This document shows positions 5,158-28,272 of a stretch of DNA of 64,000 nt, in pieces; the stretch's first letter is position 1, and the number at the start of each line of letters is the position of its first letter. The notes beneath the pieces were generated by a model, which searched no databases, was not told the origin of the DNA, and was given only the letters and a program-made list of their open reading frames with translations. Both the position numbers and the translations under genes were made by a program. The stretch covers positions 12,597-76,596 of the forward strand of contig CAJMRT010000003.1 of assembly GCA_905215855.1 (NCBI GenBank). Reading direction: 5' to 3'. This DNA comes from an uncultured bacterium (GTDB taxonomy: Bacteria; Bacillota; Clostridia; Oscillospirales; Acutalibacteraceae).

Positions 5158-5175
5158 AGAATTTTATAAAGTTAG

Positions 5176-11249: not shown

Positions 11250-11258
11250 AGGAGTGTC

Positions 11259-11366
11259 ATGTTTAAAAGTATTTTGTGCTTTTGTGCCGTTTTTTGCCTG
11301 CAGTACTTTTGTGTTGACTGTGGCATTATCTCGTCATATGCGTACAAAAGCCGAGAAGAGGAGTAA
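11259..11366 (+). CDS. Small Cys-rich ORF (35 aa, MFKSILCFCAVFCLQYFCVDCGIISSYAYKSREEE) directly upstream of the CPS operon. Possibly a leader peptide or small membrane protein.
   Basis: Strong RBS and promoter. Five Cys in a hydrophobic 25-aa stretch. The stop is 4 nt before the wzz start. Confidence 0.3.
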   Translation: MFKSILCFCAVFCLQYFCVDCGIISSYAYKSREEE

Positions 11367-11370
11367 TTTA

Positions 11371-12828: not shown

Positions 12829-12886
12829 TAACAAGCCGCCTGCGTAAGCATAAACTAACAGGCTCGTCCTGTCCACGGAGGGGAAA

Positions 12887-13561: not shown

Positions 13562-13573
13562 GGAGGTACTGTG

Positions 13574-14353: not shown

Positions 14354-15405
14354 TGCTTGACTTCTATAAAGGCAAAAAGGTGTTTGTAACAGGACACACA
14401 GGTTTCAAAGGCAGTTGGCTCTGCAAAATTCTCGCAAATGCAGGTGCAGAGGTTACCGGCTATTCGCTTAAACCGCCCACAAATCCAAACCTTTTTGAAA
14501 TTGCAAATATTAAAAATGACATAAATTCCGTAATCGGAGATATAAGAAATTGCGATTCACTTAAAAAGGCATTTGATGAGGCACAGCCTGAGATTGTACT
14601 TCATCTTGCCGCACAGCCGATTGTGCGTGACAGCTACAAAATGCCTGCATATACATATGAAACAAATGTTATGGGAACGGTCAACATTCTTGAATGTGTA
14701 AGACAGACTGACTGCGTAAAATCGTTCCTTAATGTCACAACCGACAAGGTTTATGAAAACAAGGAATGGCAGTGGGGTTACCGTGAAAACGAACCTCTTG
14801 ACGGCTTTGACCCATACTCAAACAGCAAAAGCTGTTCCGAGCTTGTGACACACAGCTACAAAAATTCATTTTTTGCAGACGGCAGAACAGCCATTTCCAC
14901 AGCAAGAGCGGGTAATGTTATCGGCGGCGGTGATTTTGCAAATGACCGAATTATTCCCGACTGCGTTCGTGCCTTGGAAAAGGGCGAGGATATTATCGTA
15001 AGAAATCCTTTCTCAACAAGACCGTATCAGCATGTGCTTGAACCGCTTTTTGCGTATCTTATGATTGCAAAGGCTCAGTATGAAGATATTAATTTTGCCG
15101 ACTACTACAATGTAGGTCCCGATGAATGTGACTGCGTAACAACAGGAGAGCTTGTTGACTTGTTCGTAAAGTACGCGGGAAACATAAAGTGGATCAATAA
15201 GAGCGAGAAAAATGCCGTGCATGAGGCAAACTTCCTCAAACTTGATTGTTCAAAACTCAAGTCTGTTTTTGGTTGGACACCGCATTGGCATGTTGACAAG
15301 GCTGTTGAAAAAACAGTTGAATGGTCACGCTGTTATATGAACGGCGACGATGTTCGCAGTTGTATGGACGAACAGATAAATGATTTTCTTAAAAGCAGAA
15401 TTTAA
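14353..15405 (+). CDS. rfbG: CDP-glucose 4,6-dehydratase
   Basis: FYKGKKVFVTGHTGFKGSWL plus a YxxxK SDR active site. The start overlaps the rfbF stop (TGATG), which suggests translational coupling. Confidence 0.8.
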   Translation: MLDFYKGKKVFVTGHTGFKGSWLCKILANAGAEVTGYSLKPPTNPNLFEIANIKNDINSVIGDIRNCDSLKKAFDEAQPEIVLHLAAQPIVRDSYKMPAYTYETNVMGTVNILECVRQTDCVKSFLNVTTDKVYENKEWQWGYRENEPLDGFDPYSNSKSCSELVTHSYKNSFFADGRTAISTARAGNVIGGGDFANDRIIPDCVRALEKGEDIIVRNPFSTRPYQHVLEPLFAYLMIAKAQYEDINFADYYNVGPDECDCVTTGELVDLFVKYAGNIKWINKSEKNAVHEANFLKLDCSKLKSVFGWTPHWHVDKAVEKTVEWSRCYMNGDDVRSCMDEQINDFLKSRI

Positions 15406-15438
15406 GTTTACAACGAATGATATAAAAGAGGTTAATCT

Positions 15439-16359
15439 ATGAAAAAAGCAATTGTAACAGGAGCAAACGGTTTTGTCGGTTCAAATGTCTGCAAAAAACT
15501 TTGTGCTGACGGTGTAAAGGTTTTTGCCGTTGTAAAGGATGAAAACGAAAAAATCGAAAATATCAAAGACCTTAACGGCATTGAAATCGTGTATTGCGAG
15601 CTTGATGAGATTGAAACCTTGGCTGAAAAAATTTCCGACAGAGATGTCGATGTTTTCTACCATTTTGCATGGGTAGGCTCAGCCGGTCCGCTCAGATGCG
15701 ATGAAAACATTCAGCTTCAGAATGCACTCTGGACAGCAAGAACACTCAGAACAGCAGACAAAATGCAGTGCAAAAAGTTTGTCAATGCGGGTTCTATTAT
15801 GGAAAAGGAAACCTACACTGCTGTTTACACTCAGGAAAGCAAACCGGGTTTGCCCTACATTTACGGTGCGGGCAAGCTTATTGCAAGAGCAATCTGCAAA
15901 CCTATTGCAAACAGCCTTTCAATTGACCTTTGTTGGGCAGTTATTACAAACGCTTACGGTGCAGGCGAGGTATCACCTCGTTTTGTAAACTCAACAATCC
16001 GCAAGATTATTGCAGGCGAACCGCTACAGTTTACCGCTGCAACACAAAACTATGACTTCATCTACATTGATGATGTTGCAAAAGCATTTGAGGCTATCGG
16101 AGAATACGGTATAGCAAACAAGGAATACACTATCGGCAGCGGTAATGCAAGACCGCTCAAGGAATTTATCCTTGAAATGCAGCAGGAGCTTGCCCCCGAA
16201 GCAAAGCCGATTTTCGGCGATGTTCCTTTTACGGGAGTAAATATGCCGCTTGAGGCTTTTGATACAACAGATATTGAAACAGATTGTCATTTCAAACCCG
16301 AAATTTCATTTGCAAAGGGTGCAAGAATGACTATGGACTGGATTAAATCAGTTGACTAA
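15439..16359 (+). CDS. NAD(P)-dependent sugar-nucleotide epimerase/reductase (extended SDR). Likely the 4-ketoreductase of the CDP-6-deoxyhexose pathway.
   Basis: GANGFVGSNVCKKL Rossmann motif, ~300 aa. Position between ddhB and the RmlC-like gene. Confidence 0.6.
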   Translation: MKKAIVTGANGFVGSNVCKKLCADGVKVFAVVKDENEKIENIKDLNGIEIVYCELDEIETLAEKISDRDVDVFYHFAWVGSAGPLRCDENIQLQNALWTARTLRTADKMQCKKFVNAGSIMEKETYTAVYTQESKPGLPYIYGAGKLIARAICKPIANSLSIDLCWAVITNAYGAGEVSPRFVNSTIRKIIAGEPLQFTAATQNYDFIYIDDVAKAFEAIGEYGIANKEYTIGSGNARPLKEFILEMQQELAPEAKPIFGDVPFTGVNMPLEAFDTTDIETDCHFKPEISFAKGARMTMDWIKSVD

Positions 16360-16447
16360 GACAACACAAAGGGCGAAATGTAACTTTCGCCCTTTCTATG
16401 TGTAAGGGTATTGCTTACATATAAAGATTTTTAAAGGAGAGAGAACG

Positions 16448-17020
16448 ATGATTCAGAAGTTTGAATTTTGCAACACAGATTTTGAAGGCGCATATCTTAT
16501 CAAGCCGTTTTGTGCAACAGATGTAAGAGGTGCATTTATAAAGGATTATTCCAAGGAAGTTTTCGAGGCAAACGGTCTTAAACATGACCTTGCGGAGGTT
16601 TTCTACACTGTATCACACAAGGGTGTAATCCGAGCACTTCACTTTCAGAGAGTTCACGAGCAGGCAAAGCTTGTAAGATGTATCAAGGGCAAAGTTTTTG
16701 ATGTTATCGTTGACCTCCGCCCCGAATCACCGACATTCAAAAAGTGGCAGGGCTTTTACCTTTCAGAGGAAAATATGAACGAACTCTATGTTCCCGAGCA
16801 TTTTGCACACGGCTATCTCGTTCTTGAACCGTCAGTTGTTTCATACAAATGCGGCGAAAAATTCTACGGTGAATATGACGACGGCATTATGTATAACGAC
16901 CCCGATTTTGGCGTTGAATGGCCGTTTGATGAAATCGGCGGAGAAGAAAACCTTATTCTCGCCGACAAGGACAAAAATCTTCAGACATTCAAGGAGTTTG
17001 AAGAAAAGTATCTTAAATAA
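16448..17020 (+). CDS. RmlC-like cupin sugar-nucleotide 3,5- (or 5-/3-) epimerase
   Basis: ~190 aa with the RmlC-family pattern (FIKDYS..., ALHFQR, HFAHGYLVLE). Confidence 0.7.
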   Translation: MIQKFEFCNTDFEGAYLIKPFCATDVRGAFIKDYSKEVFEANGLKHDLAEVFYTVSHKGVIRALHFQRVHEQAKLVRCIKGKVFDVIVDLRPESPTFKKWQGFYLSEENMNELYVPEHFAHGYLVLEPSVVSYKCGEKFYGEYDDGIMYNDPDFGVEWPFDEIGGEENLILADKDKNLQTFKEFEEKYLK

Positions 17021-17047
17021 TCAAAAATTCACCTACGGAGGGTCACA

Positions 17048-18055
17048 ATGAATGTAGTATATTCAAGCTCTGACAGCTATGCACCTATTGCGGGTGTGTC
17101 AATAATGTCGCTCCTGCACAACAACACAGATGCCGATGAAATAAATATTTATATGATTGACAACAGCATTTCCGATGAGAATAAAAAAAGATTTCAAAAT
17201 ATGACTGAAAAGTTCGGCAGAAAAATCGCCTTTATCCCTCAGCCTGACCTTAACAAGGCGGCAGGGGTTGATATAGAGGTTGGCAGATGGAATATCAGCA
17301 CATTTTTCAGACTTTTCCTATGCACAATTCTTCCCGATGACCTTGACCGCTGTATATATCTTGATTGTGACACGGTTGTCCGTCATTCTTTAAAGGATTT
17401 CTGGGAAACCGACCTCGGCGACAAAGTTGTTGCCGCAGTTGACGACTGCCGCAGTGACCGTTATAAAACCGAACTGAATCTTCCGTGCGACAGCACTTAT
17501 ACAAATAACGGTGTTTTGCTGATTGACCTTAAAAGCTGGAGAGAAATGAATGTTGAAAAGGATTTTCTCGACTTCATTATTGCACACAACGGCGACATCA
17601 CCTATGTTGATCAGGGCGTTCTCAACGGTGTGCTTGCCCAAAAGAACCTTGTAAAGGTTGTTCACACTAAGTATGATGCAATGACAGTTTTCTTTGATTT
17701 TAATTTCAAAGACCTTATGAAGGTGCGCCGTCCGGAACATCACCTCAGCGAACAGGAATATATTGAGGCTGTAACAGACCCGTATATCATTCACTACACT
17801 TCATGTTTCCTCTCGGGCACACGCCCATGGAATGAAAACAACAATCACCCGTTTGTGGGCGATTATCTTAAATATAAGGCTATGTCACCATGGAAAGATT
17901 TTCCGCAGTATCCCGATGACAGAAAGAAATCCAAAAAACTTATGACAAGTGTGTGCAATGCAATGCCAAAAGGTATGATGATTGCAGGTATTTCACTTGT
18001 ACACTCAAAGCTGTACCCAATGGTACGCTCACTTAAAGGAAAAAGGCAGGGCTAA
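17048..18055 (+). CDS. Glycosyltransferase family 8 (RfaJ/GspA-like retaining glycosyltransferase)
   Basis: N-terminal NVVYSSSDSYAPIAGVSIMSL, the DxD motif in IYLDCDTVV, and a HxxxxK-type C-terminal region. Confidence 0.75.
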   Translation: MNVVYSSSDSYAPIAGVSIMSLLHNNTDADEINIYMIDNSISDENKKRFQNMTEKFGRKIAFIPQPDLNKAAGVDIEVGRWNISTFFRLFLCTILPDDLDRCIYLDCDTVVRHSLKDFWETDLGDKVVAAVDDCRSDRYKTELNLPCDSTYTNNGVLLIDLKSWREMNVEKDFLDFIIAHNGDITYVDQGVLNGVLAQKNLVKVVHTKYDAMTVFFDFNFKDLMKVRRPEHHLSEQEYIEAVTDPYIIHYTSCFLSGTRPWNENNNHPFVGDYLKYKAMSPWKDFPQYPDDRKKSKKLMTSVCNAMPKGMMIAGISLVHSKLYPMVRSLKGKRQG

Positions 18056-18057
18056 CA

Positions 18058-19305
18058 ATGAAAATTCTGCTTGTTAATAAATACCACTATGTAAAAGGCG
18101 GCAGTGAAACCTACTATTTCGGTCTTGCCGACCTTCTCACAAAGCTTGGTCACGAAGTAATTTACTTTTCAATGGCAGACATTAACAACAAACCATGTGA
18201 ACAGGAAAAATACTTTGTTTCAAATGTCGATTTTAATTCTAATATTTCCACGCTTCAGAAAGTAAAGGCAGGTTTTCGCGTTCTCTATTCTTTTGAGGCG
18301 AAAAAAAATATTTCTGCTCTCATTGAACAAGAACATCCTGATATTGTTCATATTAACCTTGTTCACCGTCACATCACCCTTTCGATTGTTCGAGCAATAA
18401 AAAAATACAACATACCAATAGTGTTCACAATTCACGACCTTAACTGTGTATGTCCCAACCACGAAATGCTTGTAAACGGCCATGTATGTGAAAAATGCCT
18501 GCACGGCAGATATTCAAATTGCATAAAAAATAAATGTGTAAAAGGTTCAACTGCAAAAAGTACTCTTGCGGCTATTGAGGCAACAAACTATAAACGAATG
18601 AAAATATATGACGACATAGACTTGTACATCACGCCGTCATATTTTTACAAAAAGAAGCTTGAAGAATCCGGTATTATCCACAGCGAAATTATCCATATAA
18701 AAAACTTTCTGCCTACCGATACTGTTTATTCCGACAATAATCCCGACAACGGTTATCTGTTATACTTTGGCAGAATTTCCGAGGAAAAGGGTGTGCTGAC
18801 GCTCGTTAAGGCTGTTGAGAAGCTCGAGAACAATATTCCGCTCATCATTCTCGGCACAGGTCCTATTGAAGATGAAATCAAGGAATATATAAAAGCACAT
18901 AACCTTGGAAACAGAATCAAAGCATTAGGCTTCAAGTCCGGTGACGAGCTTAAAAAGTATGTTGCAGAAGCGAAATGCGTCATTCTTCCCAGTGAGTGGT
19001 ACGAAAACGGGCCCTATACAATTATGGAAGCAATGTCACAGGGAAAACCTGTTATCGTAACAAATTACGGCGGACTTCCTGAAATTGTAGAAGATGGAAA
19101 AACAGGCTTTATCTGCTCACCGTTTGACAGTGATGACCTTAAAAACTCAATTAAAAAAGTCTGCTCGCTTTCTGATGCTGAATACAAAGCAATGAGCAGT
19201 TGTGCCGTTGAGAAAGCAAAAATCGAATTTTCTCCGGTAACCTATGCGCAGAAACTCACACAAAAATATAATGAGATTATAAATAATCACAAAAAGAAAG
19301 GCTGA
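18058..19305 (+). CDS. Glycosyltransferase family 4 (GT-B, 'group 1')
   Basis: N-terminal GT4-like domain (KILLVNKYHYVKGGSETY). C-terminal EX7E region (PSEWYENGPYTIMEAMSQGKPVI). Confidence 0.75.
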   Translation: MKILLVNKYHYVKGGSETYYFGLADLLTKLGHEVIYFSMADINNKPCEQEKYFVSNVDFNSNISTLQKVKAGFRVLYSFEAKKNISALIEQEHPDIVHINLVHRHITLSIVRAIKKYNIPIVFTIHDLNCVCPNHEMLVNGHVCEKCLHGRYSNCIKNKCVKGSTAKSTLAAIEATNYKRMKIYDDIDLYITPSYFYKKKLEESGIIHSEIIHIKNFLPTDTVYSDNNPDNGYLLYFGRISEEKGVLTLVKAVEKLENNIPLIILGTGPIEDEIKEYIKAHNLGNRIKALGFKSGDELKKYVAEAKCVILPSEWYENGPYTIMEAMSQGKPVIVTNYGGLPEIVEDGKTGFICSPFDSDDLKNSIKKVCSLSDAEYKAMSSCAVEKAKIEFSPVTYAQKLTQKYNEIINNHKKKG

Positions 19306-19309
19306 TACC

Positions 19310-19386
19310 ATGAAAAAACTTGGCCTTTGCGCTTGCTACAACCACAAAAACTACGGCAGCCAGCTTCAAAACTATGCTTTAAAATT
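19310..19386 (+). pseudogene. Out-of-frame remnant of a polysaccharide pyruvyl-transferase 5' end (MKKLGLCACYNHKNYGSQLQNYAL...)
   Basis: The first ~25 codons match the conserved N-terminus of the pyruvyl transferases at 19815 and 23275 (Y..NYGs.LQaYA). The frame then runs into a short unrelated tail and a different frame encodes the acetyltransferase. Confidence 0.4.
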
Positions 19387-19809
19387 ATGTTTGGAAAGAG
19401 ATTTTCTGTCGGCAAAAATACAACATTCCGCAAAAATTTTGGCATTTATCTTGAAAAAGGTGCGTCAATAAAGATAGGAAACGATTGTTTTTTCAATCGT
19501 GGTTGTTCCATTAACTGCCTCGAAAGTGTAGAAATCGGAGATCACACTATCTTTGGCGAAAATGTAAAAATCTATGATCAGAATCATAAATTCAGAGACA
19601 GAACAAAACTTATCCGTGAACAGGGATATTCAAAAAGTCGTGTAAAAATCGGCAGCAATTGCTGGATTTGCACAAACGCTGTAATACTCAAAGGTGTTGA
19701 AATCGGCGACAATTGCGTAATCGGTGCAGGCTGCATAATTTATCATGATATTCCTGCAAATTCCGTTGTCAAGAGCAACGGTGGAATTACTGTTGAAAGT
19801 TTAGGTTAA
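19387..19809 (+). CDS. Hexapeptide-repeat (left-handed beta-helix) O-acetyltransferase (WbbJ/Mac-like)
   Basis: Repeated [LIV]G-x4 hexapeptides (IGDHTIFGENVKIYD; IGSNCWICTNAVILKGVEIGDNCVIGAGCIIY). The start is re-placed at the internal Met (MFGKRF). Confidence 0.7.
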   Translation: MFGKRFSVGKNTTFRKNFGIYLEKGASIKIGNDCFFNRGCSINCLESVEIGDHTIFGENVKIYDQNHKFRDRTKLIREQGYSKSRVKIGSNCWICTNAVILKGVEIGDNCVIGAGCIIYHDIPANSVVKSNGGITVESLG

Positions 19810-19814
19810 TTATT

Positions 19815-20933
19815 ATGGACAAAAAGAAAACCGTTGCATATCTTACAAGACATGCAGTGTCAAACTACGGCTCTGTTCTTCAGGCATATGCCACCCAAAC
19901 CGCACTTGAAAAGCTTGGATGCAATGCAGTTTGCATTGACTATTACAGAACAGATGAAAAAACAGAAAACATTGTAGATACAAGACTCAAAAGCGTCAGT
20001 GCAAAGTGGAACAAAAATGCACTGACCCGCATTGTTTTTAAAGCCACACAAAAGCCTGTCTACAAGTTTGCCGACAAGCGTTTTAAGGAATACAGAAAGA
20101 TTGTCAAGGTAACAGACAGAGAGTTCAACAGCGAAGAAGAGCTTAAAAACGATATTCCAAAGGCTGATATATATATGACCGGCAGTGATCAGGTATGGAA
20201 CACTGTTGTCTGCGGTAAAATTGATCCGGTATATTTTCTGTCTTTTCTGCCAAAAGAGGCAAAAAAAATTGCATATGCCGCAAGTTTTGGCGGAGCAAGC
20301 GTTGCAGACAGTGATAAAGAAAATATAAAAAATTGGCTTGAACAATATGATGAAGTCACAATCCGTGAAAACAGCGGTGTAAAGATTGCGTCTGAACTCG
20401 GAATAAATGCAAAACAAGTGCTTGACCCCACCTTTTTACTTGATAAAAATGAATGGGAAAAGATTATTCCGAACCGCAGCTGTAATGAAAAATATGTGCT
20501 TGTTTATCAGCTTCACCCAAACAAGCAATTTGATACATATGCAAAAAAATTTGCAAAGAAAAAAGGCTTGAAACTTTACAGAATAAGCCACTGTTTCCAC
20601 CACTTTGTACGCAGCGGTAAATTTATTTGCTGTCCTTCAATCGGAGAATTTTTGTGGTACATAAAAAATGCAGAATATTTTCTTACCGATTCATTTCACG
20701 GCACAGCTTTTTCAATCGGCTTGAACACTCAATTTGTTGATGTGCTGCCTAAAAGTTACAGTGAAAGAATTTCAAGTATTCTTCAACTTATCGGCTATGA
20801 AAACCGCATATTAAAAAGCTACAGTAACTTTGATATTGCAAATGAAAAGATTGATTTTAACATTGTAAATGAAAAGATTTCGGAAGAAAGAGCAAAATCA
20901 TTTGCCATTTTGAAATCTATGATAGGTGATTAA
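19815..20933 (+). CDS. Polysaccharide pyruvyl transferase (CsaB/WcaK family)
   Basis: N-terminal VAYLTRHAVSNYGSVLQAYAT, ~370 aa, C-terminal DSFHG motif (LTDSFHGTAFSIG). Confidence 0.75.
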   Translation: MDKKKTVAYLTRHAVSNYGSVLQAYATQTALEKLGCNAVCIDYYRTDEKTENIVDTRLKSVSAKWNKNALTRIVFKATQKPVYKFADKRFKEYRKIVKVTDREFNSEEELKNDIPKADIYMTGSDQVWNTVVCGKIDPVYFLSFLPKEAKKIAYAASFGGASVADSDKENIKNWLEQYDEVTIRENSGVKIASELGINAKQVLDPTFLLDKNEWEKIIPNRSCNEKYVLVYQLHPNKQFDTYAKKFAKKKGLKLYRISHCFHHFVRSGKFICCPSIGEFLWYIKNAEYFLTDSFHGTAFSIGLNTQFVDVLPKSYSERISSILQLIGYENRILKSYSNFDIANEKIDFNIVNEKISEERAKSFAILKSMIGD

Positions 20934-20935
20934 CA

Positions 20936-22099
20936 GTGAACAATATAATGCAGCTCGGCAAAGGCTGTTGCGGCTGTTCCGGTTGCGAACAGATTTGTCC
21001 CAAAAATTGTATATCTATGCAAAAAGACAATGAGGGCTTTTTCTATCCCGTTGTTGACGAAGATGTGTGTGTTGATTGCGGTGCGTGTGTAAAGCACTGC
21101 CCAATGATTACAGATGCTCCGAGATGCAGCGAGCCAAAGGTCTATGCAGCAAAATACAAAGACCGTGAAAGTACATTCAAAAGTACATCCGGCGGACTTT
21201 TCATACCTATTGCAAAAAACATACTGTCTGACGGCGGAATAGTATTTGGATGTGCGTATGATGAAAACCTTGTTGCAAAGCATATTGCTGTAGAAAGCGA
21301 AAATGAGCTTTGCAGATTACAAAGTTCAAAATATGTTCAGAGCGATACAAGAGGAATTTACGAACAGGTAAAATCAGCACTCAAAAGCGGCAGACAGGTT
21401 CTTTTCAGCGGTACAGGCTGTCAGGTTGCGGGTCTTAAAACCTATCTTTCAAGAGATTATGATAATCTTCTGACCGTTGACATCGTGTGTCACGGCGTTC
21501 CGAGTCCCGAACTTTTTAAGAACTATATAGACTATATGGGCAAAAAGCTGGGCGGAAGTCTTACATCATACAATTTTAGAAGCAAGGAAAAGCGTGGCTG
21601 GGATTTGTATTACAAAGCAGATAACGGCAAAAAAAGCAAATCGGATTATGGCTTTTTCGACTCATACTACAGTGCCTTTTTGTACTGTAAAACCTACCGT
21701 GAAAGCTGTTATGAATGTAAATTTGCCAACAAAAACCGTGTTGGCGACATTACCCTTGCCGACTACTGGGGAATTCAGAAGGCTCACCCTGAATTTTATG
21801 ATGAGAACGGTGTTTCACTTGTTCTTGTCAACACCGAAAAGGGAAATAAATGCCTTACTAATATTAAAGATAAGCTTGACATAATTGAGTCTGACTATGA
21901 TAAAGCATCTGTTATGAATTCAAATCTTGTACATCCCTCAAAACGACCAAGTTGCAGGGATTCAATTTATGACGGTTTTGACTGCGGCAACTTTGAAACA
22001 TATGCAAAAACTAAGCTTGCTTTTAAAATAAATCCAAAAACCAAAATCAAAAAAATGATTCCTCTCGGAGTAAAAAGGTTTCTGAGAAAATTACGCTGA
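20936..22099 (+). CDS. Coenzyme F420 hydrogenase/dehydrogenase beta-subunit-like protein with an N-terminal 2x[4Fe-4S] ferredoxin domain
   Basis: CCGCSGCEQICP and CVDCGACVKHCP cluster motifs followed by an FrhB-type domain (ST/SGG, CHGVPSP). It pairs with the pyruvyl transferase. Confidence 0.7.
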   Translation: MNNIMQLGKGCCGCSGCEQICPKNCISMQKDNEGFFYPVVDEDVCVDCGACVKHCPMITDAPRCSEPKVYAAKYKDRESTFKSTSGGLFIPIAKNILSDGGIVFGCAYDENLVAKHIAVESENELCRLQSSKYVQSDTRGIYEQVKSALKSGRQVLFSGTGCQVAGLKTYLSRDYDNLLTVDIVCHGVPSPELFKNYIDYMGKKLGGSLTSYNFRSKEKRGWDLYYKADNGKKSKSDYGFFDSYYSAFLYCKTYRESCYECKFANKNRVGDITLADYWGIQKAHPEFYDENGVSLVLVNTEKGNKCLTNIKDKLDIIESDYDKASVMNSNLVHPSKRPSCRDSIYDGFDCGNFETYAKTKLAFKINPKTKIKKMIPLGVKRFLRKLR

Positions 22100-22119
22100 T
22101 AAAGGAAGGAAAACCGATA

Positions 22120-23256
22120 ATGAGGGTACTGCAAATTGCTGTTGGAATAAACGGCGGAGGTGTCGGCGCTGTATTATTAAACTACTACAGCCATATGGAT
22201 CATAATGATGTGAAATTTGATATTATTATCGACGACCTTCCATCGGTGAAAAACGGCAGCCTTAATGAAGCTGCCTTTAAGCAGATGGGCTGCAATATTT
22301 TCCGTGTCACACCAAAGTCCGTTAATCTGAAAGAGAATATCCGACAGGTAAGTGAAATAATGAAAAGCGGCAATTATGATGTGTTACATTCAAATATGGA
22401 AGAATGGTCGGCACTGTACTGCCGTCTGGCAAAAAGGCACGGTATAAACACACGCATTGCTCATGCACATCTTGCGTATGTAAACACACCGAGCCTGATT
22501 AAAAAAATGTATAACCGTGTTTTGAAAACAGGTTTAAAACATTACGCGACTGACTTTTTTGCTTGCAGTCGTGATGCGGGAAAATACCTTTTTGGAGATT
22601 CTATTCTTAAAAAAGATAATTTTAAAGTTCTTCCAAACGCAATAGAAACAAACAAATACATTTATAATTGCGAAACAAGGAACAGAATAAGAAAAGAATT
22701 CGGAATCAGCGATAATACATTTGTGGTAGGATTTGTCGGAAGATTATATTATCAAAAAAATCCCGAGCGTATGCTCAGAATTTTTAATGAAATCTGCAAA
22801 AAGCACAGTGATTCTCGACTTATTGTTGTCGGTGATTATAAATGCTATCCAAAATTTTCAGGACTTACGGATTATGCTGTCAAAAACGGCATTTACGATA
22901 AAATCACCTACACAGGTTTGCGTCAAGATGTTCCCGATGTTATGCAGGCATTTGATGCGTTTGTTCTCCCCTCTCGTTACGAAGGTTTCGGAATAGTGTA
23001 CATAGAGGCTCAGGCGGCAGGACTTATGACATTCGGAACGGCAAAGGTAGTTCCCGAAGAAGTCAACTGTACAAAACTTATGAACTTTATTGATTCAAAG
23101 AAAACTGACAAAGAATGGGCAGAAATTATTCTGAATAAAAGCTTAAACTATACAAGGGAAGATCTGTCAACTGAAATTCAGAATTGCGGTTTTGAAATTG
23201 CCATTGAAGCAAAAAAAATGCAGAAATTTTATATTGAAAAAGCAAACAGACAATAA
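22120..23256 (+). CDS. Glycosyltransferase family 4
   Basis: C-terminal GT-B domain with EX7E (PSRYEGFGIVYIEAQAAGLMTF). ~380 aa. Confidence 0.7.
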   Translation: MRVLQIAVGINGGGVGAVLLNYYSHMDHNDVKFDIIIDDLPSVKNGSLNEAAFKQMGCNIFRVTPKSVNLKENIRQVSEIMKSGNYDVLHSNMEEWSALYCRLAKRHGINTRIAHAHLAYVNTPSLIKKMYNRVLKTGLKHYATDFFACSRDAGKYLFGDSILKKDNFKVLPNAIETNKYIYNCETRNRIRKEFGISDNTFVVGFVGRLYYQKNPERMLRIFNEICKKHSDSRLIVVGDYKCYPKFSGLTDYAVKNGIYDKITYTGLRQDVPDVMQAFDAFVLPSRYEGFGIVYIEAQAAGLMTFGTAKVVPEEVNCTKLMNFIDSKKTDKEWAEIILNKSLNYTREDLSTEIQNCGFEIAIEAKKMQKFYIEKANRQ

Positions 23257-23274
23257 ATATCGGAGGCAGTATAA

Positions 23275-25620
23275 ATGATAGGTCTGGCAACTCCATACAA
23301 AACTCAAAATTACGGCACAAAATTGCAGGCCTATGCCATGCAGACAATTTTCTCTGAAATGGGATATGATACTGAAGTTATCAGTTATATGCATATTTCA
23401 AGCAAAAAAGATAAAATTCTAACTCTGCTTTCACCCAAAAAGCTCAGAGAAAAAGCCAAGTATAAGAAAGCAGCAAAGAATGCTGTCAGCAATGCCGCTT
23501 ATACAGAATGCGTTTCTCTCAGAAACAACAAGTTCAATGAATTTGTCAACAACAATCTGCGTACAACACGCAACTTTGTAAGTCTTGATTCATTGAAAGA
23601 ATATTCTAAAAGATACGATGCGGTTATATGCGGAAGCGATCAGATATGGCTGCCTGTACATATAAGGCAGAATTATTATACACTTTCATTTGTTCCCAAA
23701 GGAACACGGAAAATTGCCTATGCCCCAAGTTTTGGCATAAGCACTGTAGAAAATTCTGATAAAAAACTCTACCAAAATGCAATCAATAATTTTGACTTTC
23801 TCTCATGCAGAGAGGAAAGCGGCTGCAAACTCATACATAATCTTACCGGTCGTGATGCTCAGCTTGTTCTTGATCCTACCCTTATGGTAAGCAAAAAAAA
23901 TTGGGATAAGATGAGCGGTGACACACCAATCGTGAATGGAAAATATATATTCTGCTATTTTCTTGGACAGAACCCCGAACACAGAAAGGCTGTAAAGAAA
24001 CTTGCAGAACAGACCGGCTTTAAAATTGTTTGTCTTCCGTATATTGAAGGATATACGGAAAGTGATGATAATTATGCAAATATTTCATTGTGTGACATAG
24101 GACCCGACGGCTTTATCAATTTGATAAAAAATGCTCAGTTTGTATGTACGGATTCATTTCACGGCAGTGTTTTTTCAACTATATTTGAGCGTCAGTATTT
24201 TGTTTTTGAGCGTTTTGCAAGCGGAACGAAAGGCTCAACCAACACCCGCCTTGAATCACTTTTAAAAAGTCTTAAGCTTGAGTACAGACACATTAAAGGC
24301 AGTGATGTTTCACCGGATTGGGACAAAAAGATTGCTAAACCTATTGACTATAACAAAACCAATGCACTTCTTGCCAATCTTAAAAACGAGTCATTCAACT
24401 ACATTTTAAAAGTACTTGACGGAATCCCGCCCAAAAAAGCAAAACATATTGAATTATTTGATAAGTTTGATTGTTGCGGATGTTCTGCTTGTGCCGATAA
24501 ATGTCCTACAAACAGTATTTCTATGAAGCCTGATGAAGAAGGATTTTTATATCCTGAAATTGACAAATCGAAATGCGTTGAATGTTCGGCTTGCATTAAA
24601 TCCTGCCCGATAAAACAGTTTCGCAAAAGTGAAAATGATTTTACTGCTTTTGCTGCTAAAAGTAATGATAAAGAAATCAGACACGAAAGCACATCAGGCG
24701 GTGTATTTACCCACCTTGCAAAAGCAATCATATCAAATGGCGGTGTTGTTGTAGGAGCTGCATTTGACGAAAGTTTCAATGTGAAGCACATTGTCATTGA
24801 AAATGAGGAAGATATAAAAAAATTCCGCAGTTCAAAATATGTGCAAAGTAATACTCAGGGTATCTATAAAAAAGTAAAAGAGCTTCTTAGTACAGAAAAA
24901 ACTGTTATGTTTTCGGGAACGCCCTGCCAAATAAGGGCATTAAAAAGCTTTCTCGGCAAAGATTACGATAATCTTATATTGGTTGACCTTTTCTGCCACG
25001 GAGTACCTTCTCCAAAAATATGGCAAAAATATCTTGATTTTACAAATCCCCAAAAAGAAAAAATTCAATCTGTTTCATTCAGAGATAAACGAATCAGTTG
25101 GGAAGACTATTCACTGACCGTCAAATATGACGGAACTGAAAAAAGTACATTTTGGAAAGATGACAGCTATGCCCGTGGCTTTGGTTTTTCATTATTTAAC
25201 CGTCCGTCATGCAGCAAATGCCGTCTTAAATCATTCCCGAGAGTAAGCGACATTACTCTTGGCGACTTGTGGCTTATCGAACAGATTTTTCCCGATTTTG
25301 ATGACCACAAAGGAACTTCTTTTGTTATCCTAAACAGTGATAAAGGCTGTAAGCTGTTTGAAAAAATTAAGAGTGAAATTACCTCTAAAGAAATTCCCAA
25401 AGATAAACTTAATCTCACCTATCCTGTAATGGGTTCTCCCACAAAAGCCCATCAGAATCGAAGCAAGTTTTTTGAACAGCTTGATACCATTCCGTTTGAC
25501 GAACTTATAAAAAAATACGCAACAGTAGACCGAAAACGAGAATACAAAATAAAACGAAATGAAGTTCTTAATAAAATGGGAGTCCTTCCATTACTTAAAA
25601 AGATAAAAAGAAAATTATGA
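23275..25620 (+). CDS. Fusion protein: N-terminal polysaccharide pyruvyl transferase plus C-terminal 2x[4Fe-4S] / F420-hydrogenase-beta-like domain
   Basis: Residues 1-~390 match the pyruvyl transferase (TQNYGTKLQAYAM ... TDSFHGSVFS). Residues ~400-781 carry CCGCSACADKCP / CVECSACIKSCP and an FrhB-like region (CHGVPSP). This reproduces gene pair 19815+20936 as one polypeptide. Confidence 0.75.
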   Translation: MIGLATPYKTQNYGTKLQAYAMQTIFSEMGYDTEVISYMHISSKKDKILTLLSPKKLREKAKYKKAAKNAVSNAAYTECVSLRNNKFNEFVNNNLRTTRNFVSLDSLKEYSKRYDAVICGSDQIWLPVHIRQNYYTLSFVPKGTRKIAYAPSFGISTVENSDKKLYQNAINNFDFLSCREESGCKLIHNLTGRDAQLVLDPTLMVSKKNWDKMSGDTPIVNGKYIFCYFLGQNPEHRKAVKKLAEQTGFKIVCLPYIEGYTESDDNYANISLCDIGPDGFINLIKNAQFVCTDSFHGSVFSTIFERQYFVFERFASGTKGSTNTRLESLLKSLKLEYRHIKGSDVSPDWDKKIAKPIDYNKTNALLANLKNESFNYILKVLDGIPPKKAKHIELFDKFDCCGCSACADKCPTNSISMKPDEEGFLYPEIDKSKCVECSACIKSCPIKQFRKSENDFTAFAAKSNDKEIRHESTSGGVFTHLAKAIISNGGVVVGAAFDESFNVKHIVIENEEDIKKFRSSKYVQSNTQGIYKKVKELLSTEKTVMFSGTPCQIRALKSFLGKDYDNLILVDLFCHGVPSPKIWQKYLDFTNPQKEKIQSVSFRDKRISWEDYSLTVKYDGTEKSTFWKDDSYARGFGFSLFNRPSCSKCRLKSFPRVSDITLGDLWLIEQIFPDFDDHKGTSFVILNSDKGCKLFEKIKSEITSKEIPKDKLNLTYPVMGSPTKAHQNRSKFFEQLDTIPFDELIKKYATVDRKREYKIKRNEVLNKMGVLPLLKKIKRKL

Positions 25621-25633
25621 CGGGAGAGTACTG

Positions 25634-26875
25634 ATGAAAAAACTAATGAATCAAAACTGGTTTATCGCCATAGTATTTATGGTTCTGTATAAACCTGCAA
25701 TATTTTCACAAATGGCTCAATATCAGACATTTGATAAAATTTCAAATGTGCTGAAGGTACTCATCATTGCCGTCCTTCTGGTGTGGGTTTGCCTCTTTTA
25801 TCAAAAATTTTCAATGTACTTTGTAATATTTTTGTTTTTCGAAGTTTGGAGGATACTGGCAACGATTTATTGTGACGGAAACTATTCTTCCTTGTTTCTG
25901 ACAATATTCAATTCTCTTGCAATTGTATTAGTTGTTGAAATGGGACTAAAAACTGACCCTGATGCACTGCTTGACGGTGCGACCTTTGTTTTGGGAATAT
26001 TCGTGTTAATTAACTTTATCACTGTACTTTTGTTTCCGCAAGGAATGTATGAGTTTAACACATACACAACAAACTACTTCCTTGGTTATAGAAATAATTC
26101 GATTATGCTTATTTTTCCTGCAATGATTTTTTCGGTTGTTCGTTCCCTCAGATTATATGACAGATTGACTGTATCTTCTGTCCTGATTTGTGCCGCATCA
26201 ACTGCGACAGTAATACTTGCATTTTCCGCAACCAGCGTTATCGGAATTACAATATTTATTCTGTTCCTTTTTCTGGCTCTCCTCAACTGGATGCCGAAGT
26301 TTCTTAACATTGTCACATATATTGCAATAAATATTGCTTACTTTTTCGGAGTAATTATTCTGCGAGTTCAAGAAGCCTTTGCGTTTATTATTGTTGATAT
26401 GCTTGGAAGGGATTTAACCTTCACAGGCCGTACCAGCATATGGGACAGTGCGCTTGAAGCATTTTACAAATCTCCTATATTTGGTGTCGGTGAAATTGAT
26501 AATCAGGCATCAAGAGATTTAATAGGTGCTACACATGCTCATAACTATTACCTGAATCTTTTGTACAAAAGCGGAGTCCCCGGATTTTTGCTTTTCTTTA
26601 CCATCCTTATTATTTGTGGTATTGCCTTATACAAAAATCGCAAAAACGGCAAGATTCCGTTTGTTGTGTCAGGCGCTCTTTGCGCATTTATGGTTATGCT
26701 GCAAAGTGAGGCTTATTACAACATATATTATTTCTTTTCAATTCTCACATTATCAACATTCATATCATATGCTCTTCCCCAAAAAGATTCTGAGGGAAAT
26801 TTCATATATAAAAATAAAAAACAGATAAAATCCAAAAAAGTAACGATTAAATTTAAGGATGTGACTCATACTTGA
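25634..26875 (+). CDS. wzy: Wzy-type polysaccharide polymerase / O-antigen-ligase-family membrane protein
   Basis: ~10 TM segments with a large loop containing ...ATHAHNYYLNLLYKSGVPG, typical of the Wzy_C/O-antigen ligase domain. Confidence 0.6.
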   Translation: MKKLMNQNWFIAIVFMVLYKPAIFSQMAQYQTFDKISNVLKVLIIAVLLVWVCLFYQKFSMYFVIFLFFEVWRILATIYCDGNYSSLFLTIFNSLAIVLVVEMGLKTDPDALLDGATFVLGIFVLINFITVLLFPQGMYEFNTYTTNYFLGYRNNSIMLIFPAMIFSVVRSLRLYDRLTVSSVLICAASTATVILAFSATSVIGITIFILFLFLALLNWMPKFLNIVTYIAINIAYFFGVIILRVQEAFAFIIVDMLGRDLTFTGRTSIWDSALEAFYKSPIFGVGEIDNQASRDLIGATHAHNYYLNLLYKSGVPGFLLFFTILIICGIALYKNRKNGKIPFVVSGALCAFMVMLQSEAYYNIYYFFSILTLSTFISYALPQKDSEGNFIYKNKKQIKSKKVTIKFKDVTHT

Positions 26876-28272
26876 GCAATGCAAGTAAGGAAAACGGTAA
26901 AAATATAAAGGCGAGTGCTTTTTACTTGGTGGGCAACCTATTCAACAAAGCTCTTGCGTTTTTTACAATACCTATATTCACAAGAATTCTTACAACATCT
27001 GAATACGGAATTTCGCAAACCTATTTATCTTGGGTCAGCATATTAACTCTTATTGTCGGACTTTCGCTTGGCAACTCAATCCGTACAGCGTATGTTGATT
27101 TTCACGATGACATTGAAGGTTATATGTCATCAATTTACGGTCTATCATTACTCAGTTTTCTTGCTTCATCAGCTTTAATCATTACAGGGATGCTAATTTG
27201 GGGAGATATTGACATAATTCTCGTCATATGCTGTCTTGTGCAATCATATTTTCAGTTTGTTGCAACTGCTATGACAACAAAATATATGATGAAAGTTGAT
27301 TACATAAGAAAAACCCTTTTGCTGGCACTTCCAAATTTGACGATTCAGGTTATTGCAATATTCACCATTATGAATATGCACGGCGATAAAAAATACTTCG
27401 GATATATTATCCCATACGCCGCAATATATATGGTGGTCGGAATATATTTTGTAATTTCGTCATTTATCCGAGGAAAAAAGCCTGTAAACAAATTATATTG
27501 GAAATATGCACTCACATATTCCCTGCCACTTATATTCCACGGCCTTTCACTTGTTCTTCTGTCAAGTTCCGACAGAATTATGATTACAAACCTATATAAC
27601 TCATCTGAAACCGGAGTTTATAGTCTGATTTATAATTTAAGTATGGTTGCCATGGCAGTCACCGCATCTCTTGAGGCTGTGTGGGTCCCATGGTTCACCC
27701 GAAAACTTATGACAGGTGAGAAATCAACCATTAACAAAAACATCACAAAATACCTTGAAATTGCCCTTGTAGTCATGCTGTGCCTTATGTTTGTTGCTCC
27801 GGAAATAGTAAAAATTATGGCAACAGAACAATATTACAGTGGTATATATATGATTCCGCCGCTTGTATTTGCTTCCTACGAAATGTATATGTACACCGTA
27901 TATGTAAATGTAGAGTATTACTATAAATCAACAAAATACATTGCTTTTAACACCATTGTAGCTGCGGTTACAAACATTGTGCTTAATTTCATTTTTGTTC
28001 CTTTATACGGTGGAATGGCAGCCTGCTTTACTACAGTTGCTTCTTATATGGTTTCATTTATAATGCACTCAAGACACTCACGCAAGCTTGACAAAGAGCT
28101 GTTTCCCCTTAAACAATTTGCTGTTCCAACCTTAATTTTTATCCTTGCAATTATTCTTGCCTACCTTTTAATGGAACTTTGGATCGCACGCTGGATAATT
28201 GCAATTGTTGGATTTATCTGTTATGCAGCGTATGCACTCTTAACAAAGAGATTTTCAAACTTCCTAAAATAA
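26872..28272 (+). CDS. wzx: Wzx-type oligosaccharide flippase (MOP/PST family)
   Basis: ~12-14 TM. N-terminal KASAFYLVGNLFNKALAFFTIPIFTRIL pattern. The start appears to be TTG, overlapping the wzy stop. Confidence 0.7.
   Translation: MSNASKENGKNIKASAFYLVGNLFNKALAFFTIPIFTRILTTSEYGISQTYLSWVSILTLIVGLSLGNSIRTAYVDFHDDIEGYMSSIYGLSLLSFLASSALIITGMLIWGDIDIILVICCLVQSYFQFVATAMTTKYMMKVDYIRKTLLLALPNLTIQVIAIFTIMNMHGDKKYFGYIIPYAAIYMVVGIYFVISSFIRGKKPVNKLYWKYALTYSLPLIFHGLSLVLLSSSDRIMITNLYNSSETGVYSLIYNLSMVAMAVTASLEAVWVPWFTRKLMTGEKSTINKNITKYLEIALVVMLCLMFVAPEIVKIMATEQYYSGIYMIPPLVFASYEMYMYTVYVNVEYYYKSTKYIAFNTIVAAVTNIVLNFIFVPLYGGMAACFTTVASYMVSFIMHSRHSRKLDKELFPLKQFAVPTLIFILAIILAYLLMELWIARWIIAIVGFICYAAYALLTKRFSNFLK

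What the first reader, a model, noticed from the sequence alone, without database searches (positions are those of the whole stretch)
19815..25620. Pyruvyl transferase and FrhB-like 4Fe-4S protein occur as a split pair and again as a single fused 781-aa gene in the same locus
Genes 19815..20933 (pyruvyl transferase) and 20936..22099 (2x[4Fe-4S] plus F420-hydrogenase-beta-like domain) sit 3 bp apart. Gene 23275..25620 encodes the same two domains, in the same order, as one polypeptide. This is Rosetta-stone-style evidence that the domains act together. The role of the redox-like FrhB domain alongside a polysaccharide pyruvyl transferase in a non-methanogen is not known to me and is not determinable from sequence.
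Basis: partly seen in the sequence, partly recalled or inferred. Interest (0 to 1): 0.7.

Follow-up and report, generated by a model that had tools for sequence, protein, structure and literature searches.

The report
Paired pyruvyl-transferase/Fe-S flavoprotein glycan-modifying modules
A capsule/exopolysaccharide gene cluster of the gut bacterium Ruminococcus bromii carries two copies, one split and one fused, of a very widespread but uncharacterised enzyme pair that most likely attaches lactic-acid ethers rather than ordinary pyruvate ketals to sugars.

Summary
Gene 19815-20933 is a PF04230 pyruvyl transferase (PvT). Gene 20936-22099 has 2x[4Fe-4S] plus FrhB_N/C domains. Gene 23275-25620 is an end-to-end fusion of the same two modules: 30% identity (E 6e-37) to the PvT and 38% (E 5e-85) to the FrhB-like protein.

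The window is Ruminococcus bromii, and the genes lie in a Wzx/Wzy polysaccharide operon (11254-28272).

The pairing is general:
- At least 120 database clusters encode full-length 765-801 aa fusions.
- The genome scan found at least 598 FrhB-like loci. Of the best 80, 61 have a PvT within 6 kb, and 51 of those are adjacent or fused. In a slot-based recount, 49 of 59 were adjacent against 21 expected.
- Fusion arose in several separate clades.

No open paper assigns a function.

My proposal is a MurA/MurB-like two-step route built from non-homologous enzymes. The PvT puts an enolpyruvyl ether from PEP on a lipid-linked sugar. The Fe-S flavoprotein, probably fed by ferredoxin, reduces it to a lactyl (1-carboxyethyl) ether.

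Support for this:
- Characterised ketal PvTs work without a partner.
- FrhB relatives such as HCAR act on non-F420 substrates.
- In Klebsiella, the three lactyl-ether capsule types I could identify (K22, K37, K66) have a PvT gene, no pyruvate, and a type-specific reductase gene. In K66 that gene is annotated 'F420 hydrogenase'.

The functional coupling is near certain. The lactyl-ether chemistry is about 50% likely.

The parts
11254..12093 (+). Wzz-type chain-length determinant; first gene of the polysaccharide operon
   Evidence: Pfam Wzz, E 2.2e-10
12115..12828 (+). CpsD/CapB-like P-loop (tyrosine-kinase type) ATPase
   Evidence: Pfam AAA_31/ParA/CbiA
12887..13561 (+). Initiating polyprenyl-phosphate sugar-phosphate transferase (short WbaP/EPS_sugtrans type)
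   Evidence: Pfam Bac_transf, E 6.7e-69; NCBIfam WbaP/EPS_sugtrans
13571..17020 (+). Four genes for a CDP-6-deoxyhexose: glucose-1-P cytidylyltransferase (13571-14353), CDP-glucose 4,6-dehydratase (14332-15405), SDR epimerase/reductase (15439-16359), RmlC-like 3,5-epimerase (16448-17020)
   Evidence: NCBIfam TIGR02623 at 415 bits (cut-off 300), TIGR02622 at 454 bits (cut-off 278), TIGR01221 at 176 bits (cut-off 156); Pfam
17048..19305 (+). Two glycosyltransferases: GT8 (17048-18055) and GT4 (18058-19305)
   Evidence: Pfam Glyco_transf_8, E 3.5e-38; Glycos_transf_1, E 2.3e-38
19327..19809 (+). Hexapeptide-repeat O-acetyltransferase (gene callers use a later start, giving 140 aa)
   Evidence: Pfam Hexapep; NCBIfam WbbJ/WcaF-like, below cut-off
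19815..20933 (+). Split module, part 1: polysaccharide pyruvyl transferase family protein (372 aa). Proposed PEP-dependent enolpyruvyl transferase.
   Evidence: PF04230, E 5.5e-40; 30% identical to the fused N-half
20936..22099 (+). Split module, part 2: 2x[4Fe-4S] ferredoxin domain (about 20960-21109) plus FrhB-like flavin/Fe-S domain (387 aa). Translationally coupled to the PvT gene. Proposed enol-ether reductase.
   Evidence: Pfam Fer4_7, FrhB_FdhB_N and FrhB_FdhB_C; 12 invariant Cys and an SGG motif; junction sequence
22120..23256 (+). GT4 glycosyltransferase between the two modules
   Evidence: Pfam Glycos_transf_1, E 6.8e-24
23275..24423 (+). Fused gene, PvT domain (residues 1-383)
   Evidence: PF04230, E 4.4e-38, residues 12-310; GT-B fold with a match to yeast Pvg1p 5ax7
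24442..25620 (+). Fused gene, 2x[4Fe-4S] plus FrhB-like domain (residues 390-781), ending in a basic helical tail
   Evidence: Pfam; 38% identical to the split protein; fold matches to FrhB/FdhB-type subunits and HCAR; model pLDDT 90.8, pTM 0.89
25634..26875 (+). Wzy-type repeat-unit polymerase
   Evidence: Pfam Wzy_C, E 8.3e-19
26872..28272 (+). Wzx-type flippase; last gene of the operon
   Evidence: Pfam Polysacc_synt, E 9e-19

Best explanation
The region is part of a Wzx/Wzy-dependent capsule/exopolysaccharide operon (11254-28272) of Ruminococcus bromii. The operon encodes one initiating transferase and three glycosyltransferases, which fits a repeat unit of about four sugars. It also encodes an O-acetyltransferase and two copies of a conserved two-enzyme tailoring module.

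Each module combines a PS_pyruv_trans-family transferase with a soluble protein carrying three Fe-S clusters and an FrhB-type flavin domain. One module is two translationally coupled genes. The other is a single 781-aa fusion.

Shown: the two families form a physically and functionally coupled unit that is conserved across phyla. The two copies here are old paralogues from different clades, so they probably act on different sugars or positions.

Inferred mechanism:
1. The PvT transfers the enolpyruvyl group of PEP to a hydroxyl of the undecaprenyl-PP-linked repeat unit on the cytoplasmic face of the membrane.
2. The enol ether does not cyclise to a pyruvate ketal. It passes to the FrhB-like partner.
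3. The partner's flavin receives electrons through the Fe-S chain from reduced ferredoxin (not F420) and reduces the C=C bond. The product is a lactyl (1-carboxyethyl) ether.

This is the logic of MurA/MurB carried out by unrelated protein families.
For: Coupling:
- Fusion and split pair occur in one locus.
- At least 120 database clusters (90% identity) encode full-length fusions of 765-801 aa.
- The genome scan found at least 598 FrhB-like loci. Of the best 80, 61 have a PvT within 6 kb: 7 fused, 44 adjacent on the same strand, 10 nearby.
- In a separate recount that places genes in slots, 49 of 59 PvT-containing loci were adjacent or fused against 21.2 expected under random placement. None of 200,000 simulations reached 49.
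- Fused forms lie in several clades of the tree.
- Independent RefSeq annotation shows the same pairing on plasmids of Pseudobutyrivibrio and Desulfotalea.
- The fused protein models as one compact body, pTM 0.89.

Redox competence:
- Twelve invariant Cys in three 4-Cys groups, plus the SGG and GT(G/P)CQ motifs shared with FrhB-type proteins.
- Fold matches to FrhB, FdhB and F420-reducing Fwd/CODH subunits, and to Arabidopsis HCAR, which is named for a non-F420 substrate. That HCAR and BciB use ferredoxin is from my own knowledge.

Chemistry:
- Recombinant CsaB, WcfO and Pvg1p make ketals from PEP with no partner, and CsaB and WcfO need lipid-PP-linked acceptors (PMC6801904). The partner therefore adds something.
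- Among 79 Klebsiella capsule types, four have a PvT gene but no pyruvate: K8, K22, K37 and K66 (PMC4616057).
- K22 and K37 uniquely also have a 'nitroreductase', and K66 uniquely has a 'coenzyme F420 hydrogenase'.
- K22 and K37 carry 4-O-(1-carboxyethyl)-GlcA and K66 carries beta-Glcp-O-lactyl.
- In Campylobacter, a 234-Da sugar proposed to be glucolactilic acid (my arithmetic: hexose + 72) is reported in species whose pgl operon has a pyruvyl transferase gene (bioRxiv 10.64898/2026.05.23.727390).
Against: - There is no biochemical or genetic test of any member, and no polysaccharide structure was found for R. bromii.
- I could not retrieve the Klebsiella K66 gene, so its homology to this family rests on its published BLAST name.
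- The K66 assignment was read from a tab-delimited table by column position.
- K8 has a PvT without pyruvate and without a reductase.
- 19 of 80 FrhB-like loci have no PvT within 6 kb, so the family is not restricted to this role.
- Some loci have more PvT genes than FrhB-like genes.
- The electron donor, the flavin and the stage of action are inferred.
- I could not inspect model coordinates, so the geometry between the two active sites is unknown.
Confidence: 0.5

Rival explanations
1. The module makes a different pyruvate-derived or redox-tailored substituent. The FrhB-like protein might further transform a pyruvate ketal or enol ether by reductive ring opening, decarboxylation, or formation of longer hydroxy-acid ethers. 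Or it might reduce or oxidise the acceptor sugar itself before or after pyruvylation.
For: The evidence shows only that a redox-capable Fe-S flavoprotein is coupled to the PvT. Other ether-linked hydroxy acids occur in bacterial glycans, such as 2,4-dihydroxypentanoic acid ethers (PMC10609480). FrhB-like proteins without a PvT sit in other polysaccharide loci, so they may have other glycan substrates.
Against: The Klebsiella correlation points specifically to the simple lactyl ether. Reduction of an enol ether is the shortest chemical path and has the MurB precedent.
Confidence: 0.25
2. The module makes ordinary pyruvate ketals. The FrhB-like part is then an accessory, such as a scaffold, a redox sensor that gates pyruvylation, or a helper needed for particular ketal ring types or stereochemistry.
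For: The PvT halves score strongly on PF04230, whose characterised members are ketal-forming. Databases name the fusions simply 'polysaccharide pyruvyl transferase family protein'.
Against: Three unrelated ketal PvTs work alone in vitro. All 12 Cys and the flavin motifs are strictly conserved across phyla, which argues for catalysis. Klebsiella K66, K22 and K37 have the PvT-plus-reductase gene set but no pyruvate ketal.
Confidence: 0.15
3. The FrhB-like genes are F420-linked energy-metabolism genes, as their database names suggest, and lie next to PvT genes by chance or as operon hitch-hikers.
For: Only the family name and weak sub-threshold NCBIfam hits to FpoF and FrhB (54.9 bits against a cut-off of 475).
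Against: All NCBIfam F420 models are far below cut-off. No hydrogenase or dehydrogenase partner genes are in the operon. Adjacency and repeated fusion are far beyond chance. The hosts are gut Bacillota and Bacteroidota, which are not known to make F420 (my own knowledge).
Confidence: 0.02

Closest known systems
Ketal pyruvyltransferases of PF04230 (P. alvei CsaB, B. fragilis WcfO, S. pombe Pvg1p; also WcaK, GumL, ExoV by annotation)
   Same: Same Pfam family and same GT-B-like fold, with a Foldseek match to Pvg1p 5ax7. Same genomic setting in Wzx/Wzy loci. PEP as donor and a lipid-PP-linked acceptor are presumed.
   Different: The characterised enzymes act alone and give cyclic ketals. Here the PvT is obligatorily paired or fused with an Fe-S flavoprotein. 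Sequence similarity to solved PvTs is marginal (profile against 5ax7, E 0.92). The 2019 sequence-space survey took only proteins of 250-600 aa, so the fusions were excluded.
MurA/MurB (UDP-GlcNAc enolpyruvyl transferase plus FAD-dependent enolpyruvyl reductase), which make the lactyl ether of muramic acid
   Same: The proposed reaction logic is the same: enolpyruvyl transfer from PEP to a sugar hydroxyl, then flavin-mediated reduction of the enol ether to a lactyl ether.
   Different: There is no homology. Pfam found PS_pyruv_trans and FrhB/Fer4 domains only, with no EPSP-synthase-fold or MurB-type domains. The acceptor is presumably a lipid-linked oligosaccharide rather than a nucleotide sugar, and electrons presumably come through Fe-S clusters rather than NADPH.
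FrhB/FdhB/FpoF family (PF04422/PF04432), including the plant and cyanobacterial members HCAR and BciB
   Same: Domain hits above the Pfam cut-offs. Fold matches to 8rja_E, 8riu_B, 7bkb_E, 4ci0_C, 6qii_B and HCAR 5dqr. N-terminal 2x[4Fe-4S] extension as in the FpoF/Fsr-type proteins.
   Different: All NCBIfam equivalog models for F420 enzymes are far below cut-off. The host is not expected to contain F420. The partner is a glycan transferase, not a hydrogenase or dehydrogenase. The substrate is unknown.
Klebsiella capsule loci K66 (wcqF PvT + HG203 'coenzyme F420 hydrogenase') and K22/K37 (wclZ PvT + HG127 'nitroreductase')
   Same: A PvT gene lies alongside a flavoprotein reductase gene in a Wzx/Wzy capsule locus. 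Their capsules carry O-lactyl sugars and no pyruvate.
   Different: The authors listed these as unexplained mismatches and proposed no pathway. K22 and K37 use a different reductase family. I could not obtain the sequences, so homology of HG203 to the window protein is not verified.
Glucolactilic-acid genes of Shigella boydii 17, S. dysenteriae 3 and E. coli O124 (wfeP and a partner)
   Same: Two cluster-encoded genes are reported to be required for a lactyl-ether glucose. O164 lacks the lactyl group because of a frameshift in wfeP (PMC7685785; title of Senchenkova 2006).
   Different: The protein families of those genes are not stated in any text I could read. That review assumes modification at the UDP-sugar level. 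A blastn search of complete E. coli genomes with the window pair found nothing, as expected at this divergence.

Membership tests
Polysaccharide pyruvyl transferase family (PF04230) | Significant match to the family profile over most of its length | tested here: met
   138.5 and 132.2 bits against a cut-off of 25.3, profile positions 1-274/275 of 280
Polysaccharide pyruvyl transferase family (PF04230) | Two-Rossmann-domain (GT-B-like) fold as in Pvg1p | tested here: met
   Fused-protein model, pLDDT 90.8. Foldseek hits to GT-B enzymes and Pvg1p 5ax7, E 1.5e-5.
Polysaccharide pyruvyl transferase family (PF04230) | Forms a cyclic pyruvate ketal from PEP | not testable with these tools
   No structure of the R. 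bromii polysaccharide was found. Indirect evidence from Klebsiella suggests PvTs partnered with a reductase do not yield ketals.
CsaB equivalog (TIGR03609) | Score above the NCBIfam cut-off | tested here: not met
   21.6 bits against a cut-off of 213.1
FrhB/FdhB family (PF04422 + PF04432) | Both family domains present above the gathering score | tested here: met
   Fused: 40.6 and 96.7 bits. Split: 22.9 and 82.2 bits. Cut-offs are 22 and 23.3.
FrhB/FdhB family (PF04422 + PF04432) | Fe-S ligands and flavin-binding glycine motif conserved | tested here: met
   Invariant C162, C185, C258, C261 and S85-G86-G87. The GG and GTxCQ motifs align with 8rja_E.
F420-dependent enzymes (FrhB, FpoF, FdhB equivalogs) | Equivalog-level score, a hydrogenase/dehydrogenase partner, and use of F420 | tested here: not met
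   Best is FpoF at 54.9 bits against a cut-off of 475, and frhB at 30.1 against 331.5. No partner subunits in the operon. F420 use itself is not testable here.
MurA/MurB lactyl-ether pathway | MurA (EPSP-synthase fold) and MurB (FAD_binding_4/MurB_C) domains | tested here: not met
   Neither domain was found in any of the three proteins. The resemblance is in proposed mechanism only.
Wzx/Wzy-dependent polysaccharide gene cluster | Initiating phosphoglycosyl transferase, glycosyltransferases, Wzy polymerase, Wzx flippase and chain-length regulators on one strand | tested here: met
   All genes from 11254 to 28272 are on the + strand with short gaps.

The most novel reading that the evidence does not exclude
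PS_pyruv_trans plus FrhB-like pairs and fusions are the missing, widespread biosynthetic machinery for ether-linked lactic acid (glycolactilic acids) in bacterial capsules, O-antigens and exopolysaccharides. They would be a probably ferredoxin-driven, non-homologous analogue of MurA/MurB acting on lipid-linked glycans. Nitroreductase-type partners would be an alternative reductase, as in Klebsiella K22/K37. If so, thousands of genes now named 'coenzyme F420 hydrogenase beta subunit' in gut Bacillota and Bacteroidota are glycan enol-ether reductases, and lactyl ethers are common on gut-commensal surfaces.
Probability: 0.45. Interest if true: 0.7.

Novelty: new variant of a known kind. Interest (0 to 1): 0.55.

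Why it matters
Lactyl (1-carboxyethyl) ethers are recurring charged epitopes of capsules and O-antigens in Shigella, E. coli, Klebsiella and Proteus. From memory, they also occur in Butyrivibrio and cyanobacterial exopolysaccharides. Apart from muramic acid, their enzymology is essentially undescribed in the literature I could search.

A simple genomic marker (PvT next to or fused with an FrhB-like protein) would predict these epitopes from sequence. It would correct a very common misannotation ('F420 hydrogenase beta subunit' in organisms not known to make F420). It would also point to a link between anaerobic ferredoxin pools and surface-glycan chemistry in abundant gut bacteria such as R. 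bromii.

The hypothesis can be tested directly with one knockout and a mass or NMR measurement.

Tried and rejected
- Literature. No open paper links FrhB-like proteins with pyruvyl transferases or assigns a function. The 'wfeP' and 'lactyl' searches were swamped by unrelated text. Liu 2008 (Shigella O antigens) is not held. The supplements of DebRoy 2016 and Iguchi 2015 give only accessions or nothing.
- Enterobacterial homologues. I used the Desulfotalea protein as query to try to reach Klebsiella or E. coli homologues, and none appeared among the best 120. blastn of the split pair against 5,426 complete E. coli genomes found no match. Homology to K66 HG203 and to the E. coli/Shigella glucolactilic-acid genes therefore remains untested.
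- Solved pyruvyl transferases. Single-sequence and profile searches of PDB sequences were uninformative. Conservation of the PEP-binding residues could not be judged.
- F420/energy-metabolism reading: rejected (and context).
- Recent duplication of the module within the locus: rejected. The two copies are only 30-38% identical and fall in different deep clades.
- Rfam scan of the window: nothing. The promoter/terminator scan gave no clear internal terminator on the + strand.


Full report
**1. Observation**

The three ORFs are present exactly as described. Pfam identifies them as follows:
- 19815-20933 (372 aa) is a polysaccharide pyruvyl transferase (PvT; PF04230, E 5.5e-40).
- 20936-22099 (387 aa) is a 2x[4Fe-4S] ferredoxin domain followed by FrhB_FdhB_N and FrhB_FdhB_C.
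- 23275-25620 (781 aa) has PS_pyruv_trans at residues 12-310, Fer4 at 400-445, FrhB_N at 459-527 and FrhB_C at 542-703.

The fused protein aligns end to end with the split pair. Its N-half is 30% identical to the PvT (E 6e-37). Its C-half is 38% identical to the FrhB-like protein (E 5e-85). About six residues bridge the two parts.

The split genes are translationally coupled: TAA, two nucleotides, then GTG, with GGTGA upstream. Homologues begin MNNI..LGK. This favours the GTG at 20936 over the ATG at 20948 used by automatic gene callers.

**2. Context**

Exact-sequence look-ups assign the window to Ruminococcus bromii. The identical locus occurs on at least 23 metagenome contigs.

Genes 11254-28272 form one + strand Wzx/Wzy polysaccharide operon. 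In order they encode:
- a Wzz-like protein and a CpsD-like ATPase;
- an initiating phosphoglycosyl transferase;
- a four-gene CDP-6-deoxyhexose pathway;
- GT8 and GT4 glycosyltransferases and an O-acetyltransferase;
- PvT, the FrhB-like protein, a GT4 and the PvT-FrhB fusion;
- Wzy and Wzx.

No hydrogenase, formate dehydrogenase or other F420-type partner is present. All NCBIfam F420-enzyme models score far below their cut-offs. The best is FpoF at 54.9 bits against 475.

**3. How general is the pairing?**

- Searching with the fusion returned 750 proteins at E <= 1e-10. The best 120 database clusters are all full-length fusions of 765-801 aa carrying both Pfam domains. The named ones are from Lachnospiraceae, Erysipelotrichaceae and Faecalicatena.
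- The stand-alone FrhB-like family is very large: 7,994 of 8,000 scored candidates reached E <= 1e-10.
- A scan of one genome per species found at least 598 loci. The best 80 come from Bacillota, Bacteroidota, Fibrobacterota, Spirochaetota, Chloroflexota and Elusimicrobiota.
- I searched those 80 loci with HMMs built here. 61 contain a PvT within 6 kb: 7 fused, 36 adjacent in the order PvT then FrhB, 8 adjacent in the reverse order and 10 nearby.
- In a separate recount that assigns genes to slots, 49 of 59 PvT-containing loci were adjacent or fused. Random placement of the PvT among the locus's gene slots predicts 21.2, and none of 200,000 simulations reached 49.
- Ten loci carry two FrhB-like genes with two or more PvTs, like the window. 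Several have one FrhB-like gene flanked by two PvTs.
- RefSeq annotation independently shows the pairing on a Pseudobutyrivibrio xylanivorans plasmid and a Desulfotalea psychrophila plasmid.
- A rough neighbour-joining tree puts the window's two FrhB-like copies in different deep clades and puts fused proteins in at least three separate places.
- Ruminococcus MAGs L007 and L020 have two tandem split pairs. The second pair belongs to the clade that is otherwise fused.

Fusion and fission have therefore happened repeatedly. This is classic evidence for an obligate functional partnership.

The 19 loci without a PvT form clades of their own. Examples are Phascolarctobacterium, next to DUF6125 or BrxA genes, and Sphaerochaeta. 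Others sit among other polysaccharide genes.

**4. What the proteins look like**

Fourteen diverse FrhB-like sequences share 12 invariant cysteines:
- two CxxCxxCxxxCP ferredoxin motifs;
- a further set, C162, C185, C258 and C261.

They also share an SGG motif and a GT(G/P)CQ motif. Both motifs align with the FrhB-type subunit 8rja_E.

AlphaFold2, run with 121 sequences, models the fusion with mean pLDDT 90.8 and pTM 0.89. That indicates a defined mutual arrangement of the two halves.

Foldseek gives these matches:
- The C-half matches the FrhB-type subunits of F420-reducing formylmethanofuran dehydrogenase and CO dehydrogenase, FdhB and FrhB itself.
- The C-half also matches Arabidopsis 7-hydroxymethyl chlorophyll a reductase (HCAR), whose name shows a non-F420 substrate.
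- The N-half matches GT-B enzymes, including the yeast pyruvyltransferase Pvg1p.

From my own knowledge, HCAR and the related 8-vinyl reductase BciB take electrons from ferredoxin, and BciB reduces a C=C bond. That is a useful precedent.

The basic helical C-terminal tail (residues 753-780, lower pLDDT) may help membrane association. This is inference.

**5. What is known**

The main review of glycan pyruvylation never mentions F420 or FrhB. Its sequence networks were limited to proteins of 250-600 aa, which excludes the fusions. It reports that recombinant CsaB, WcfO and Pvg1p each form 4,6-ketals from PEP on their own, and that CsaB and WcfO require lipid-PP-linked acceptors. A redox partner is therefore not needed for ketal formation.

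The most telling published data are two tables that nobody appears to have combined.
- Pan et al. (PMC4616057) found that, of 79 Klebsiella capsule types, four have a PvT gene although the capsule has no pyruvate: K8, K22, K37 and K66.
- The same study found a 'nitroreductase' only in K22 and K37 (HG127, listed next to PvT wclZ). It found a 'coenzyme F420 hydrogenase' only in K66 (HG203, listed next to PvT wcqF).
- K22 contains 4-O-[(S)-1-carboxyethyl]-glucuronic acid. The paper's title calls it 'another glycan' with this sugar, which I take to refer to K37.
- The sugar table of PMC6856556 lists beta-D-GlcpA-O-lac for K37 and beta-D-Glcp-O-lac for K66.

So the three lactyl-ether capsule types I could identify are the types that combine a PvT with a type-specific flavoprotein reductase. 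In K66 that reductase carries the name that databases give to the family studied here.

Other published hints:
- In Campylobacter, a 234-Da sugar proposed to be glucolactilic acid is reported in species whose pgl operon contains a PvT gene. By my arithmetic, 234 is hexose + 72, whereas a ketal would add 70.
- In E. coli, O164 differs from O124 only by loss of the lactyl group, through a frameshift in wfeP.
- A 2006 paper reports 'two new genes' for glucolactilic acid synthesis. I could not read which families they belong to.

**6. Proposed mechanism**

Steps marked 'inferred' are not shown by any result here.
1. Inferred from family membership and from CsaB/WcfO: the PvT uses PEP to place an enolpyruvyl group on a hydroxyl of the undecaprenyl-PP-linked repeat unit.
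2. Inferred: the enol ether does not undergo intramolecular ketalisation. It is handed to the tightly associated or fused FrhB-like protein.
3. Inferred: electrons from reduced ferredoxin, which I expect to be abundant in this anaerobe, pass through the two ferredoxin-type clusters and the third cluster to the flavin. The flavin reduces the C=C bond to give a 1-carboxyethyl ether.
4. Two modules from different clades would decorate two different sugars or positions of a repeat unit that is probably a tetrasaccharide (one initiating transferase and three glycosyltransferases) and is also O-acetylated.

This works like MurA/MurB, but the proteins are not members of those families.

**7. Rivals**

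- A different redox tailoring of the pyruvyl group or of the sugar cannot be excluded (0.25).
- An accessory role in ordinary ketal formation is less likely (0.15), given the strict conservation of the cofactor ligands and the Klebsiella data.
- F420-linked energy metabolism or chance adjacency is effectively excluded (0.02).

**8. Limits**

- No experiment exists for any member of this family.
- The K66 gene could not be retrieved. Searches aimed at enterobacterial homologues failed.
- The K66 sugar assignment was read from table columns.
- K8 is an unexplained exception.
- One quarter of the sampled FrhB-like loci lack a nearby PvT.

**9. Verdict**

The finding is real and its interpretation is sound, but it is not peculiar to this locus. 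It is one instance of a very common, misnamed and functionally uncharacterised two-component module.

Its value lies in the testable hypothesis that the module makes lactyl ethers. I rate it a new variant of a known kind: MurA/MurB-like logic added to pyruvyl-transferase tailoring. Interest is 0.55.

Noticed in passing
window 3812-7409: Low-GC island (GC 0.315-0.337 against about 0.41, with GC skew up to +0.29). It encodes two BspA-type leucine-rich-repeat proteins (3812-4699, 6543-7409), an S9-family peptidase/esterase (5176-6099) and a 153-aa ORF with no family. It looks like acquired surface-protein genes.
   Followed up: partly
window 3137-3727: Small protein with two CBM26 starch-binding modules, next to methionyl-tRNA synthetase. 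This fits the starch-degrading lifestyle of R. bromii.
   Followed up: no
window 13571-17020: The operon makes a CDP-activated 6-deoxyhexose: a cytidylyltransferase and CDP-glucose 4,6-dehydratase above equivalog cut-offs, combined with an RmlC-type 3,5-epimerase and an SDR. This suggests an unusual L-configured 6-deoxy sugar rather than dTDP-rhamnose.
   Followed up: partly
window 28377-30536 (-) and 31594-34266 (-): Two large ORFs (719 and 890 aa) just downstream of the operon have no Pfam or NCBIfam match. The first varies between strains: 719, 716, or split into 561 + 106 aa in other contigs.
   Followed up: no
L033, L036, L038, L050, L054, L064 (Phascolarctobacterium and similar); L055, L068, L074 (Sphaerochaeta): Distinct clades of FrhB-like proteins have no PvT within 6 kb. 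In Phascolarctobacterium the downstream neighbours include DUF6125 and BrxA genes. These subfamilies probably have a different partner or substrate.
   Followed up: partly
L052 4872-8400; L067 4814-8332; L045; L084: A single FrhB-like gene flanked on both sides by PvT genes, suggesting that one reductase can serve two transferases.
   Followed up: no
L087 (Pseudobutyrivibrio xylanivorans plasmid pNP95) 4699-8158: The PvT upstream of the FrhB-like gene is annotated as two overlapping CDS, a probable frameshift. A radical SAM gene sits immediately upstream, and two GH99-like genes and a further PvT follow.
   Followed up: no
window 20936 vs 20948: Metagenome gene callers start the FrhB-like gene at the ATG at 20948 (383 aa). 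The conserved N-terminus of homologues and a GGTGA ribosome-binding site support the GTG at 20936, two bases after the PvT stop codon.
   Followed up: yes
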